IMG/VR virus record: IMGVR_UViG_3300046513_000134 | Span: 1-64,000 of that record | Reading direction: 5' to 3' (one strand) | Source of the DNA: a virus | DNA: 64,000 bases | In this document: positions 6,169 through 9,859 of the stretch, piece by piece | Layout: each line of letters starts with the position of its first letter | Numbering within the stretch: position 1 is the stretch's first letter | Notes under the pieces: generated by a model | Database searches by the model: none | Told to the model about the DNA's origin: nothing | What the model saw: only the letters and a program-made list of their open reading frames with translations | Position numbers and translations under genes: made by a program

Positions 6169-6648
6169 TCACCGCCGCGATGAAAAGGAGAGCACCAAGC
6201 GCTTCGATGGCTTTGAAGGCGTAGGCTTCGGCTCGGGCACGGGGGCTGCTACGATCCGTGGTGCCGGATAGTCGATCCCAAGCGACGCCTTGGCCAGCAG
6301 ATTGGCCGCGCCCCTGATCCGGTCGGGCATCTTGTCCCATTTCAGGGCGAAGCCGGTTCCAGCTTTCAACTGCTTTCTGTCCACGTAGCTCTTGTGCCAA
6401 TGGTTTATCCTCGAAAAGTTTTCGTCCAACTCGAAGCAGATGCGATCGTACATGGCGTCCGACAGAATGGAAACGTCGCGGACGTAGTAGAGATAGCTTG
6501 CCATCAAATACCACGGAACCAGCAGGTTCTCGGAGCGCTTGATATCGGATCGAGCCATGTCATCAAGGTTGGCGGCTCGGCCCTCCGTGTCCGGTGTCGG
6601 CGCTGGAGGGGCTACGGGGGTAACGCGCGGCTTAAAGATAAGTTTCAC
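6169..6648 (-). CDS. Stand-alone NAD+-dependent DNA ligase domain Ia-like protein
   Basis: YLMASYLYYVRDVSILSDAMYDRICFEL matches the LigA subdomain Ia pattern YY..D...SD..YD.L..EL. Confidence 0.75.
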   Translation of the reverse strand: MKLIFKPRVTPVAPPAPTPDTEGRAANLDDMARSDIKRSENLLVPWYLMASYLYYVRDVSILSDAMYDRICFELDENFSRINHWHKSYVDRKQLKAGTGFALKWDKMPDRIRGAANLLAKASLGIDYPAPRIVAAPVPEPKPTPSKPSKRLVLSFSSRR

Positions 6649-7542: not shown

Positions 7543-7824
7543 CTATGACTGGCTCTTCTTGTACACCGTCTTGTCTTTGGAGACCGGGCTGTACTGGCCG
7601 CAGCGGGCGTCTGGGGGCGTCCAGCAGGAGTTGTGGGTGCAGAACCGCAGTTCCTTGTCCTTGAGCGCTACGGGCAGCGCACGGTCGTACCATTTCATGC
7701 AGGTGTTGCACCGGCCTTCGGGTACGGCGGGTTTCGACTTCTTGAAAAAGAGGAGGGGCTTGTTGACCCTCCTCTCTTCCTGAGCCGCTGCTGAGGGAGA
7801 TTTAAGCGGCAGCTTCAGCTTCAT
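7543..7824 (-). CDS. Hypothetical Cys-containing protein
   Basis: Start MKLKLPLK at 7824; CNTC...C...C. Confidence 0.6.
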   Translation of the reverse strand: MKLKLPLKSPSAAAQEERRVNKPLLFFKKSKPAVPEGRCNTCMKWYDRALPVALKDKELRFCTHNSCWTPPDARCGQYSPVSKDKTVYKKSQS

Positions 7825-8227
7825 TGTCAGGGCTTTCTGCGGAGAGTGAACGCACGACCGTCTGTACCACCGTCTTGTGCTTGTCGGAAAGACCATTGAA
7901 GGTGGTGGCCAGTCGCAGTGACCGGGCATCCAGTTGGGCGGCGATGCTGCCAGCCGGGGGCCGTCCCTCGACTGCATGGGCTCCGTCGAACAGGTCGGAG
8001 ATCTTGACCCCGAGGCATTCGCTGATCAGCAGCAGCTTCGACGCCGACACCCGGTTGGTGCCCTTCTCGTATTTCTGTACCTGCTGGAAGGTGATGCCGA
8101 GGGCGTCGGCCAGCCCGGTCTGGCTCATCCGCGCCGTGGTGCGATAGCGCCGCAGGTTTTCCCCGACCTTGCGATCGATGGCGCTCTCGCGGCTGTCTGT
8201 GGAAACGGTCTTAGGCATAGTCCTCAA
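7802..8227 (-). CDS. XRE-family transcriptional regulator (alphaproteobacterial type)
   Basis: MSQTGLADALGITFQQVQKYEKGTNRVSASKL signature. Confidence 0.92.
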   Translation of the reverse strand: MRTMPKTVSTDSRESAIDRKVGENLRRYRTTARMSQTGLADALGITFQQVQKYEKGTNRVSASKLLLISECLGVKISDLFDGAHAVEGRPPAGSIAAQLDARSLRLATTFNGLSDKHKTVVQTVVRSLSAESPDNEAEAAA

Positions 8228-8502
8228 TGCTCCTTTGGTTTGAGGCTGTCGCAGAGGACGGTGGTTCCGACCTCCAGTTTAAGGCCGTGCACGCCGGGGA
8301 CCGGTAATTCGGTCGCGATCCGCGTGCTCAGCAATTCGTCGGTGGGCGCATCCACGGCGTGGAACCAAAGTTCCCATCCACCACCCCGGGTGCAGATGAC
8401 TTCGAAGCCGGGCGGCATGTGGGATAAGGCCGTTTTCGGGAGGCGATCGGTGGTGACATAGAGATCACCGGACCCGTGGCCCAGTCTGATTTCATCGCCC
8501 AC
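8224..8502 (-). CDS. Hypothetical protein
   Basis: AAGGAG SD; coupled ORF. Confidence 0.65.
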   Translation of the reverse strand: MGDEIRLGHGSGDLYVTTDRLPKTALSHMPPGFEVICTRGGGWELWFHAVDAPTDELLSTRIATELPVPGVHGLKLEVGTTVLCDSLKPKEH

Positions 8503-8617
8503 TAGGTCACTCCTTGAAGTAGAGGGGATTGGTATAAGTCATATTGTCTAGGTAGCAACCCGAAGTCAATCAGGTCGAGCAGATTTATCTGAGGGCTGTG
8601 CCTGAAAAGCAAGCGGG

Positions 8618-8738
8618 GGCCACCGGACTAGCCTGCCGGGGACCCCCTTTTGATAAACGGGAGTTGAACCCGTTCCGATCGATCTCAAATCGATTGCTCC
8701 ACCGTAGAGCTTTTATCGAGCACGTCCGTCTTTCGGCC
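8618..8738 (-). ncRNA. Y RNA-like element enclosing a complete degenerate tRNA cloverleaf (8649-8719, anticodon-position TGA)
   Basis: 5' GGCCGAAAG (GNCGAANG motif); closing helices GGCC/GGCC and GGAC/GTCC; inner fold TCGATAA-AA-GCTC TACGGTG GAGC-A-ATCGA TTTGAGA TCGAT-CGGA-ACGGG TTCAACT CCCGT-TTATCAA-A; no CCA. Confidence 0.65.
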
Positions 8739-8743
8739 TGTCC

Positions 8744-8885
8744 CGCCCCCGCGAGTTTGAAGGGACCCACGCTCTACCACTGAGCTAACCCCCATCAGTC
8801 CAAACGTAAGGTGTTTGGCTGGGGGTGCTGGGATCGAACCAGCGCGCAAGGCTTAAGGTTTTGGAGGCGACTATCCTATTCGACG
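8744..8885 (-). ncRNA. YrlA-like Y RNA (circularly permuted tRNA mimic)
   Basis: 5' CGTCGAATAGGAT, then T arm GCTGG TTCGATC CCAGC (8827-8843), acceptor stem ACCCCCA/TGGGGGT closed by hairpin CCAAAC/GTTTGG, then D arm GCTC AGTGGTA GAGC (8771-8785); 3' GTCC-C-TTC...GGCG pairs back to the 5' end. Confidence 0.75.
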
Positions 8886-8904
8886 TCTGAGGTTGTTAAT
8901 CTTG

Positions 8905-9112: not shown

Positions 9113-9859
9113 TCAGAGCGCCAGTAGCGTGGCAATCAGTTTCGCGCTGATTTCCTCGTTACCCACGTCCTGCAAGTTGGCGCGCATCCGTGCCTTCTTG
9201 GTGGCCGAGATCAGCTTGTCGAGGTTGCCGAGCACCGTAGCCTTCTTCAGCGGCGTCCACATGCCGGAGCGGTGGATCGTGGCGATCTTGGCGACGTTCT
9301 TATCGACCGTGTATTCTTTGATCTGCGCCGGGTGCTTGTCGGTCGCCTCGTAGAGGACCTTGTGCTCGTTGAGCTTTTCAGTCTTCAACTGTTCGGTCTG
9401 GGCCGAAACGAAGAAGCCTTCTCCGGCACCATCGTCCTTGTTCCAGACCGCGCCCGGGGCTAGCGTCGGGATCGCTGCGAGCATTTCCCGCAGACCCGAG
9501 AGCTTCTGTTCCAGACCGAGCAGGTAGATGCCCGGCAGGTCCTTGGCCAGCGTCGTGCCGTCCACGATCAGGTCAGCCTTGGCCGACTGGTTGGCGACGT
9601 CCTTCTGCAGTACCGCGTCGAGATACTTGCCGAAGTGCTTCAGCGCGTAGTCGAGACGGGCATCGACGCTGGTGACCACCGGCTTGGTTTCCGAGGTGTT
9701 TTCGCCCGAGCGGCTGTCCTCGAAATAGGTGGTGGTGCGCGTCTGACCAAGAAAGTGGTCAGGCTTCTTGGCGAAAGTGTTCGCCGCGTCCGCAATCATA
9801 GCTGCCGACGTCTTGAGCAGGTCCTGCTCGACTGCGAGAAGTTCGTGAAGTTTCGCCAC
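9113..9859 (-). CDS. Conserved uncharacterised alpha-helical protein (248 aa) upstream of the ncRNA cluster
   Basis: GTG start after GGAGG; KLHELLAVE...LLGLEQKL...IPTL...EATDKHPAQI...SG...KKARMRAN resembles an uncharacterised phage/actinobacterial family (recalled, not searched). Confidence 0.85.
   Translation of the reverse strand: MAKLHELLAVEQDLLKTSAAMIADAANTFAKKPDHFLGQTRTTTYFEDSRSGENTSETKPVVTSVDARLDYALKHFGKYLDAVLQKDVANQSAKADLIVDGTTLAKDLPGIYLLGLEQKLSGLREMLAAIPTLAPGAVWNKDDGAGEGFFVSAQTEQLKTEKLNEHKVLYEATDKHPAQIKEYTVDKNVAKIATIHRSGMWTPLKKATVLGNLDKLISATKKARMRANLQDVGNEEISAKLIATLLAL

What the first reader, a model, noticed from the sequence alone, without database searches (positions are those of the whole stretch)
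8618..8738. Second Y-like RNA carrying a normal-order but non-canonical 71-nt cloverleaf
Seen: GGCCGAAAG (an exact GNCGAANG, the YrlA Ro-binding-type motif) opens an element closed by GTCC...GGCC. Inside, 8649-8719 folds into a full cloverleaf with perfect D, anticodon and T stems. It has a 7-nt loop TTTGAGA (anticodon position TGA, Ser) but a short 4-nt variable loop, A at position 8, a C-A mismatch in the acceptor stem and no CCA. Intact stems with lost identity elements suggest selection for shape rather than decoding (inference). I do not know of a described Y RNA with a non-permuted cloverleaf; it could be an anticodon-nuclease decoy.
Basis: partly seen in the sequence, partly recalled or inferred. 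Interest (0 to 1): 0.78.

Follow-up and report, generated by a model that had tools for sequence, protein, structure and literature searches.

The report
Acceptor-defective tRNA look-alike in phage RNA
The flagged 71-base cloverleaf is real, but it is neither a second Ro-binding Y RNA nor an ordinary tRNA: it fills a fixed slot in a phage non-coding RNA that always follows one unstudied gene (DUF7873), and it keeps tRNA shape while lacking what a tRNA needs to carry an amino acid.

Summary
On the minus strand, 8719..8649 folds as a cloverleaf (ARAGORN; Rfam tRNA 50.8 bits) with anticodon UGA, a 4-nt variable loop, A8, a C2.A71 mismatch and no CCA.

The "second Y RNA" reading fails. The Ro-type motif occurs at chance frequency and is broken in both close relatives. 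The proposed closing helix loses to a mutually exclusive, covarying local hairpin.

The element sits in a fixed slot, 46-69 nt after a circularly permuted tRNA mimic, in a composite RNA found after nearly every DUF7873 gene examined (about 100 phage loci). Slot cloverleafs keep perfect D, anticodon and T stems but have frayed acceptor ends and no CCA. In an independent replicate, 4/19 had a perfect acceptor stem against 59/75 neighbouring tRNAs (p=5e-6), and 2/19 encoded CCA against 64/75 (p=1e-9). Anticodons differ between orthologues (UGA, UGU, UAU). In other loci the slot holds only a D arm plus anticodon arm, or a lone anticodon stem-loop.

Best reading: a non-decoding, tRNA-derived module that displays an anticodon arm, possibly as bait for host tRNA-directed enzymes (inferred). 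This scan had already noted the DUF7873 composite RNA on other DNA; the slot's character is the new part.

The parts
8649..8719 (-). Slot cloverleaf: a 71-nt tRNA look-alike with anticodon loop UUUGAGA (UGA), 4-nt variable loop, A8/U14, C2.A71 mismatch and no CCA
   Evidence: ARAGORN; Rfam tRNA 50.8 bits; covariation with relatives
8720..8770 (-). 51-nt stretch between the D arm of the permuted module and the cloverleaf: the 3' strand of the Y-like closing region plus a linker holding GCCGAAAG (8737..8730)
   Evidence: 96% identical to TM16 but only 45% to Y1_11; motif not conserved
8771..8844 (-). Circularly permuted tRNA mimic core: T arm, 3' acceptor strand, discriminator, CCA, linker hairpin, 5' acceptor strand, D arm
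   Evidence: Own covariance model R1, 72.1 bits; 100% of cells paired and 13 of 16 pairs with double changes over 24 sequences; weak Rfam YrlA match over 8870..8740, 29.4 bits against a gathering score of 69
8615..8647 (-). Terminal 12-bp hairpin with 9-nt loop CAGGCUAGU (8635..8627), followed by a U-rich tail (8614..8605)
   Evidence: 89.6% paired, 7 of 12 pairs with double changes, 0 of 500 shuffles; loop invariant in window, TM16, Y1_11, L014 and L016; loops of the CAGG-N-A-N-G type end most loci
8870..8899 (-). Promoter-like site (TTAACA, 18 nt, GATAGT) just upstream of the permuted module
   Evidence: Consensus scan; both hexamers kept in TM16. A consensus match only, not evidence of function
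9113..9859 (-). DUF7873 gene, the invariable upstream partner of the RNA
   Evidence: Pfam PF25283, E 7.6e-74; permuted module found downstream of DUF7873 in all 46 loci of the first set and in nearly all of the 66 further loci searched

Best explanation
The cloverleaf is a tRNA-derived, non-decoding module. It fills a conserved slot in the 3' half of a composite phage non-coding RNA, whose order is: permuted tRNA mimic, about 50 nt, slot element, terminal hairpin. This RNA always follows the DUF7873 gene. Selection keeps the D, anticodon and T arms, that is the L-shape and a displayed anticodon loop. It does not keep the aminoacyl end: acceptor termini are frayed, G1 is absent and CCA is not encoded. 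It does not keep the anticodon either. The element most likely descends from a Thr(UGU)-type phage tRNA; in this phage one change (U36 to A, together with A37 to G) gives UGA on a class I body, which seryl-tRNA synthetase should not accept. The module is probably made as part of one transcript of about 260 nt. I infer that it works by offering a tRNA-shaped anticodon arm to a host factor that reads anticodon loops, either as bait or an inhibitor for an anticodon nuclease, or as a docking point for the DUF7873 particle. Shown: the structure, the fixed slot, the acceptor defect, anticodon turnover and the reduction series. Inferred: co-transcription, lack of charging and the bait function.
For: Cloverleaf. 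Fixed offset of 49-64 nt in 13 of 43 loci and 46-69 nt in 19 new loci. Across 13 slot cloverleafs the D, anticodon and T stems are 100% paired with many double changes, but the acceptor stem is 76.7% paired, with pair 1-72 failing in 7 of 13 and 2-71 in 6 of 13. First set: 13 of 13 have an acceptor mismatch and 0 of 13 encode CCA, against 7 of 8 perfect stems and 6 of 8 with CCA among neighbouring tRNAs. Independent replicate: perfect acceptor 4/19 against 59/75 (Fisher p=5e-6), CCA 2/19 against 64/75 (p=1e-9), G1 1/19 against 48/75. Orthologues carry UGA, UGU and UAU on one conserved body. Window against TM16: 16 of 71 differences, 6 in stems and all compensatory, while the neighbouring permuted core and linker are 95-96% identical. 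Reduction series: D arm plus anticodon arm only, or a lone 5-bp stem with a CUNNNAA loop; the anticodon arm is nearly invariant across L028, L032, L033, L035 and L037 while flanks diverge. Odd loops of 8 or 6 nt, G33, A34 and a UUA anticodon occur. The exact loop UUUGAGA recurs on a different stem in distant L138. It is the only tRNA-like gene in the 100.5-kb genome, and there is no special UCA demand. From established tRNA identity rules, bacterial SerRS needs the long variable arm.
Against: By Rfam score, slot cloverleafs (46-64 bits) overlap ordinary phage tRNAs (53-65 bits). This particular element has only one acceptor mismatch, a C.A pair that some tRNAs tolerate, and it keeps U33, a purine at 37, G18/G19 and a normal T loop. 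Host CCA-adding enzyme could supply the CCA. Most slot anticodons have U34 and would read A-ending codons that are rare in GC-rich hosts, which also fits codon supply. 4 of 19 replicate slot elements have perfect acceptor stems and 2 encode CCA, so some may be working tRNAs. A decoy would have to compete with abundant host tRNA. The DUF7873 fold gave no functional clue.
Confidence: 0.55

Rival explanations
1. It is a working phage tRNA whose anticodon has shifted between relatives (Thr UGU, Ser-codon UGA, Ile UAU) to supply rare A-ending codons or to replace host tRNAs cut by defence nucleases. It merely sits next to the Y-like RNA.
For: ARAGORN and Rfam both call it a tRNA. The elbow nucleotides, U33 and purine 37 are intact. 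Stems are kept by compensatory change, as in any functional tRNA. TM16's copy has a canonical loop and scores 64 bits. U34 dominates slot anticodons. Phage tRNAs with altered anticodon loops have been proposed to evade host anticodon nucleases (PMC10264068).
Against: A class I body with a UGA anticodon lacks the long variable arm that SerRS requires (established identity rule). If it still had Thr identity it would misread UCA. The acceptor stem is mismatched here and in 28 of 32 slot cloverleafs, against 17 of 83 neighbouring tRNAs. CCA is absent in 30 of 32. One body carries three different anticodons in three close phages with near-identical codon usage. Related loci keep only an anticodon arm.
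Confidence: 0.2
2. It is a processing signal of the mascRNA/MALAT1 type. RNase P cuts at the 5' end of the cloverleaf to make the 3' end of the upstream Y-like RNA, and the cloverleaf itself is a by-product, so its anticodon is free to drift.
For: It has a fixed short distance from the Y-like module. The anticodon is not conserved. It is not built for charging. M. smegmatis YrlA is a natural RNase P substrate (PMC4201824).
Against: RNase P reads the acceptor and T arms, yet these are the parts lost in reduced family members, which keep the D and anticodon arms or the anticodon arm alone. The frayed 1-72 and 2-71 pairs are the opposite of what accurate RNase P cleavage favours. The anticodon arm stays perfectly paired in 13 of 13, which a pure cleavage signal would not need.
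Confidence: 0.12
3. It is a tRNA gene in slow decay with no function of its own, kept only because it lies inside a conserved locus.
For: It scores lower than TM16's copy (50.8 against 64 bits). It has A8, a non-cognate anticodon/body combination and a C.A mismatch. Other loci show truncated versions.
Against: Against TM16, none of the 16 substitutions breaks a pair and 3 pairs changed on both sides. U8/A14 in TM16 becomes A8/U14 here, a coordinated swap at the two positions of a tertiary pair. D, anticodon and T stems are 100% paired in all 13. The reduced anticodon arms are conserved across diverged loci.
Confidence: 0.08
4. One reading: a second Y RNA whose GNCGAANG motif binds host Ro60/Rsr and whose ends pair (GGCC...GGCC) around a cloverleaf.
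For: There is an exact motif match in the window. Rhizobium etli is reported to have a YrlA next to its Ro60 gene (PMC4201824). Tandem Y RNAs exist in Salmonella and M. smegmatis.
Against: The motif is at chance density (56 against 53.9 expected). It is broken in TM16 and Y1_11 and found in the linker in 2 of about 100 loci. The closing helix is unsupported and competes with a covarying hairpin. No Rfam YrlA hit covers 8618-8738. The phage has no TROVE gene.
Confidence: 0.03

Closest known systems
YrlA / bacterial Y RNAs bound by Ro60 (Rfam RF02553; Chen et al. 2014, PMC4201824)
   Same: The neighbouring module (8844..8771) is a permuted tRNA mimic with T arm, acceptor stem and D arm, like YrlA and especially M. 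smegmatis YrlA with its 7-bp acceptor stem and CCA. Several tRNA-like units lie in tandem on one strand.
   Different: The flagged element is a normal-order cloverleaf with an anticodon arm, which YrlA lacks. It has no conserved GNCGAAN0-1G and no end-to-end closing helix. There is no Ro60 gene in the phage, and the constant protein neighbour is DUF7873. The Rfam score of the neighbour is well below the family cut-off.
Phage-encoded tRNAs, including those proposed to resist host anticodon nucleases (van den Berg et al. 2023, PMC10264068; Azam et al. 2024, PMC11555353)
   Same: It has a cloverleaf with a normal elbow, is phage-borne, and shows anticodon-loop changes relative to the canonical form.
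   Different: Those are working, chargeable tRNAs with intact acceptor stems. Slot elements are acceptor-defective, lack CCA, change anticodon between orthologues, and shrink to bare anticodon arms in relatives.
tRNA-like structures that are not decoders (mascRNA downstream of MALAT1; plant-virus 3' tRNA-like structures)
   Same: It is a tRNA-shaped element embedded at the 3' side of a longer RNA, kept for shape, with an anticodon loop that is free to vary.
   Different: Those come from different organisms and have different architecture. Those elements depend on the acceptor/T half (RNase P, CCA addition, charging), whereas this family preserves the anticodon and D half.
DUF7873-associated composite tRNA-mimic RNA noted earlier by this scan on other DNA (e.g. 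e1-5114463, e1-5968345)
   Same: Same gene-RNA pairing and the same order: leader, permuted mimic, second element, hairpin.
   Different: Here it is shown to be systematically unlike true tRNAs at the acceptor end and to vary from a full cloverleaf to a lone anticodon arm.

Membership tests
YrlA / Y RNA (RF02553) | GNCGAAN0-1G motif near the 5' end, conserved among members | tested here: not met
   Present in the window only. TM16 has GCTGAAAG and Y1_11 also lacks it. Chance density in the window. In the linker in 2 of about 100 loci.
YrlA / Y RNA (RF02553) | Long helix formed by the 5' and 3' ends enclosing the tRNA-like domain | tested here: not met
   The proposed helix pairs in 61.5% of cells against 55.8% in shuffles, and GGCC/GGCC in 50%. 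The competing local hairpin pairs in 89.6%.
YrlA / Y RNA (RF02553) | tRNA-like domain without an anticodon arm; covariance-model score at or above the gathering cut-off | tested here: not met
   The element has a full anticodon arm. No YrlA hit covers 8618-8738. The neighbour scores 29.4 against a cut-off of 69.
YrlA / Y RNA (RF02553) | Encoded next to a Ro60/Rsr (TROVE) gene | tested here: not met
   No TROVE match in the 100.5-kb genome, and the controls were positive. Host Rsr was not examined.
YrlA / Y RNA (RF02553) | Bound by Ro60/Rsr | not testable with these tools
   Needs a pull-down from infected cells.
tRNA (RF00005), decoding | Cloverleaf scoring above the Rfam cut-off, with G18/G19 and a T-loop elbow | tested here: met
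   50.8 bits against a cut-off of 29. D loop UACGGUG and T loop UUCAACU.
tRNA (RF00005), decoding | Fully paired 7-bp acceptor stem with a 3' CCA (encoded, or added later) | tested here: not met
   C2.A71 mismatch and AGG after the discriminator. Family-wide defect against neighbouring tRNAs. Post-transcriptional CCA addition cannot be tested here.
tRNA (RF00005), decoding | Body matches the anticodon's amino-acid class (long variable arm for Ser) | tested here: not met
   4-nt variable loop with a UGA anticodon. Genuine tRNA-Ser genes in related contigs are 84-94 nt long.
tRNA (RF00005), decoding | Anticodon conserved among orthologues | tested here: not met
   UGA, UGU and UAU at the same site in three related phages.
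tRNA (RF00005), decoding | Aminoacylation and use on the ribosome | not testable with these tools
   Needs charging assays.
DUF7873-associated composite tRNA-mimic RNA (undescribed in print as far as searched) | Lies downstream of a DUF7873 gene on the same strand, after a permuted tRNA mimic | tested here: met
   Pfam E 7.6e-74. Model R1 scores 72.1 bits at 8844..8771.
DUF7873-associated composite tRNA-mimic RNA (undescribed in print as far as searched) | Slot element starts about 46-69 nt after the mimic's D arm and is followed by a strong hairpin with a CAGG-N-A-N-G type loop | tested here: met
   Offset 52 nt. Hairpin 8647..8615 with loop CAGGCUAGU.
tRNA-like 3'-end processing element (mascRNA type) | Acceptor and T arms, the RNase P determinants, are the conserved parts across members | tested here: not met
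   Reduced members keep the D and anticodon arms or the anticodon arm alone. Acceptor ends are frayed.

The most novel reading that the evidence does not exclude
The slot is a swappable display site. A phage particle made of DUF7873 and the permuted tRNA mimic presents a non-chargeable anticodon arm, whose loop is retuned from phage to phage (UGU, UGA, UAU, UUU, UCU and others), to trap or misdirect host enzymes that attack tRNA anticodon loops. This would be an RNA-based anti-defence device of a kind not yet described.
Probability: 0.2. Interest if true: 0.85.

Novelty: new variant of a known kind. Interest (0 to 1): 0.55.

Why it matters
Annotation pipelines call these elements tRNA-Ser, tRNA-Thr or tRNA-Ile (GenBank does so for TM16 and Y1_11). 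The family comparison shows they are a distinct class: tRNA-shaped, fixed in place inside a larger phage RNA, and lacking a working aminoacyl end. That gives a concrete handle on what the widespread DUF7873 gene-RNA pair does: something that needs an anticodon arm but not an amino acid. It also offers a testable candidate for an RNA decoy in the contest between phages and tRNA-cutting host defences. Cultured phages with a known host (RHph_TM16, RHph_Y1_11) carry the same locus, so experiments are feasible.

Tried and rejected
2. The Ro motif as a signal was rejected: chance density and not conserved.
3. The 15-mer around the hairpin loop, scanned in viral contigs, gave 12 hits, of which only L014 and L016 were homologous; the rest look like chance.
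4. The permuted-module junction pattern re-found only contigs already known.
5. The metagenome and genome scans with DUF7873 gave 1 and 2 loci, so they added little.
6. DUF7873 function: the AlphaFold model is good (pLDDT 86.7), but Foldseek against PDB and BFVD gave no hit at E<=0.001. VIA-align's best Z was 8.2, to generic helical proteins. There is no PHROG, PADLOC or NCBIfam family and no paper naming DUF7873.
7. Codon-demand test: UCA, ACA and AUA are all minor codons, which is uninformative.
9. The 2021 jumbo-phage paper mentions only TROVE with a tRNA-like partner.
10. I looked by eye for pairing between the terminal hairpin loop and other loops and found none.

Full report
WHAT IS THERE

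Every feature lies on the minus strand. ARAGORN finds one tRNA-like gene in the window, and in the whole 100.5-kb viral genome, at 8719..8649 with anticodon tga. Rfam's tRNA model scores it at 50.8 bits against a cut-off of 29.
- anticodon loop UUUGAGA
- 4-nt variable loop
- A at position 8
- C2.A71 mismatch
- discriminator A followed by AGG, so no CCA

Immediately upstream, at 8870..8740, is a weak YrlA match (29.4 bits, cut-off 69). Its core, 8844..8771, is a circularly permuted tRNA mimic. Downstream, 8647..8615 forms a 12-bp hairpin with loop CAGGCUAGU, followed by a U-rich tail. The gene upstream, 9859..9113, is DUF7873 (Pfam E 7.6e-74). The genome has no TROVE/Ro60 gene.

THE "SECOND Y RNA" READING

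Chen et al. 2014 define the motif as GNCGAAN0-1G near the 5' end of YrlA and YrlB (PMC4201824). Three results count against it here.
- It occurs 56 times in this window, against 53.9 +/- 6.8 expected by chance.
- In the two related cultured phages, Rhizobium phages RHph_TM16 and RHph_Y1_11, the aligned site is broken.
- Across about 100 related loci it falls in the linker twice, which is the chance expectation.

The proposed closing helix (GGCC with GGCC, CGGAC with GTCCG) pairs in 61.5% of cells against 55.8% in shuffles. Its 3' strand belongs instead to the local hairpin. That hairpin pairs in 89.6% of cells, has 7 of 12 pairs with changes on both sides, and was reached by 0 of 500 shuffles.

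THE FAMILY CONTEXT

DUF7873 relatives were collected from IMG/VR (362 relatives exist, of which about 110 were fetched). I built a covariance model of the permuted mimic. Over 24 sequences, 100% of cells are paired and 13 of 16 pairs show double changes. The model hits downstream of DUF7873 in all 46 loci of the first set and in nearly all of the 66 further loci searched.

The mimic keeps a 7-bp acceptor stem, a discriminator and an invariant CCA joined by a linker to the 5' acceptor strand.

After the mimic's D arm, a cloverleaf starts at a nearly fixed distance: 49-64 nt in 13 of 43 loci and 46-69 nt in 19 new loci. Every locus then ends in a strong hairpin, mostly with a loop of the CAGG-N-A-N-G type. 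The flagged element therefore occupies a defined slot in a composite RNA.

A promoter-like site at 8899..8870, conserved in TM16, would put the mimic, cloverleaf and hairpin on one transcript of about 260 nt. This is a consensus match only.

WHAT KIND OF CLOVERLEAF

By Rfam score, slot cloverleafs (46-64 bits) overlap ordinary tRNAs in the same contigs. They differ at the aminoacyl end.
- First set: 13 of 13 have at least one acceptor mismatch and none encodes CCA. Of 8 neighbouring tRNAs, 7 have perfect stems and 6 encode CCA.
- Pair counts over the 13: D, anticodon and T stems are 100% paired with many double changes. The acceptor stem is 76.7% paired, with pair 1-72 failing in 7 of 13 and pair 2-71 in 6 of 13.
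- Independent replicate on new contigs, with one best-register rule applied to both groups:

| Feature | Slot (19) | Neighbouring tRNAs (75) | Fisher p |
|---|---|---|---|
| Perfect acceptor stem | 4 | 59 | 5e-6 |
| Encoded CCA | 2 | 64 | 1e-9 |
| G at position 1 | 1 | 48 | not tested |

Anticodons are diverse:
- UGU occurs 8 times, UGA 4 and UAU 3.
- UCU, UUU, UUG, CAU, GAU, AUA, AUC, CAG, AAC and GAC also occur.
- There is one UUA.
- Three loops have 8 or 6 nt.

Short, class I bodies with UGA recur in L106, L081 and L138. L138 has the very same loop as this window, on a different stem. Genuine tRNA-Ser genes in these contigs are 84-94 nt long.

ORTHOLOGUES

At the same site, TM16 has loop CUUGUAA (UGU) and Y1_11 has CGUAUAA (UAU, with G33) on the same body and acceptor sequence.

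Between the window and TM16, the permuted core is 95% identical, the linker 96% and the cloverleaf only 77%. All 6 stem substitutions form 3 compensated pairs and the other 10 lie in loops.

UGU is one step from both UGA and UAU and is the commonest slot anticodon, so a Thr-type ancestor is the simplest reading (inference).

Codon usage gives no reason for a Ser-codon reader: UCA is 10% of Ser codons, ACA 11% of Thr and AUA 8% of Ile.

REDUCTION SERIES

In other loci the slot holds less than a full cloverleaf.
- L059: a cloverleaf with a 4-bp acceptor stem.
- L028, L032, L033, L035, L037, L014 and L039: a D-like arm plus an anticodon arm.
- L057, L064, L062, L052, L054 and L034: a lone 5-bp stem with a loop of the CUNNNAA type.
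- Several loci: nothing recognisable.

In the L028-L037 group the anticodon arm is nearly invariant while the flanks diverge. The part that persists is the anticodon arm, not the acceptor and T half.

HOW IT MOST LIKELY WORKS

Shown:
- the cloverleaf shape is under selection
- its position is fixed
- the acceptor end is not maintained
- the anticodon turns over between orthologues
- relatives keep only the anticodon arm

It follows, with the established rule that bacterial SerRS needs the long variable arm, that this element is unlikely to be a Ser decoder. The family pattern also argues against decoding in general.

My best reading (0.55) is a non-decoding, tRNA-derived module of the DUF7873 composite RNA that displays an anticodon arm. 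The proposed use is inference: bait or inhibitor for a host anticodon-loop-directed enzyme, or a docking site for the particle. I give the specific anti-defence version about 0.2. It borrows from the idea that phage tRNAs answer host anticodon nucleases (PMC10264068; PMC11555353), but those are working tRNAs.

Rivals:
- a working, anticodon-shifted tRNA (0.2)
- an RNase P processing signal of the mascRNA type (0.12), weakened because reduced members lose exactly the arms RNase P reads
- a decaying pseudogene (0.08), contradicted by the compensatory changes

LIMITS

- The DUF7873 model is confident (pLDDT 86.7) but matches no informative fold or family.
- Slot elements from different loci may be different tRNA species rather than strict orthologues, so the family covariation shows a shared shape, not a shared origin.
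- 4 of 19 replicate elements have intact acceptor stems and may be real tRNAs.

NOVELTY

Earlier notes of this scan already describe the DUF7873 plus permuted-mimic RNA on other DNA; one called the second element a true tRNA. I found no paper naming DUF7873 and no Rfam family for the composite RNA. What this report adds is the character of the slot element. I rate it a new variant of a known kind (tRNA-like module, Y-like RNA), with interest 0.55.

Noticed in passing
window 8615-8647 (-); loci L014, L016, L036, L040, L045, L052 and others: The terminal hairpin loop is conserved far beyond what a plain terminator needs. CAGGCUAGU is invariant in five diverged loci, and loops of the CAGG-N-A-N-G type end most loci. 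In L016 the hairpin has no U tail and is followed by another tRNA-like unit. It is possibly a protein-binding site.
   Followed up: partly
window 8719-8723 with 8598-8603 (-): RNAalifold pairs GUGCU, just 5' of the cloverleaf, with AGGCAC, just after the U-rich tail, bracketing the cloverleaf plus hairpin. There is one double change in Y1_11, but only three sequences.
   Followed up: no
window 8870-8899 (-): A promoter-like site (TTAACA, 18 nt, GATAGT) lies directly upstream of the permuted mimic, with both hexamers kept in TM16. If real, the roughly 240-nt structured leader after DUF7873 is a separate 3' UTR or RNA domain.
   Followed up: partly
window 9113-9859 (-) and all DUF7873 loci: DUF7873 and the permuted tRNA mimic are linked in every locus of the first set and nearly all of the second. 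The protein has a confident alpha/beta model with no informative structural match.
   Followed up: partly
L075 (slot, offset 56); L049, L120, L088: One slot cloverleaf has anticodon UUA, which would read the UAA stop codon. Three others have 8-nt or 6-nt anticodon loops.
   Followed up: no
L002 (Y1_11) and L035: G replaces the near-universal U33 in the slot anticodon loop in two independent lineages.
   Followed up: no
L011, L013, L015, L017, L019: The 15-mer containing GGCAGGCTAGTCC also occurs just after gene ends in unrelated viral contigs that have no tRNA mimic nearby. It may be chance or a separate small motif.
   Followed up: no
window 8224-8502 and 7802-8227 (-): A 92-aa ORF of no known family and an HTH (Cro/C1-type) regulator follow the RNA locus. 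The same pair follows it in TM16 but not in Y1_11.
   Followed up: no
window 6169-6648 (-): A 159-aa ORF with only the N-terminal NAD-binding (Ia) domain of a DNA ligase (Pfam Nlig-Ia, E 7e-16).
   Followed up: no
L003 (Rhizobium phage TM30, 207 kb) 1496-1568: Large Kleczkowskaviridae Rhizobium phages carry the same DUF7873-type gene and permuted mimic, unannotated in GenBank, with an ordinary tRNA-Thr(UGU) about 480 nt downstream after a small CDS.
   Followed up: partly
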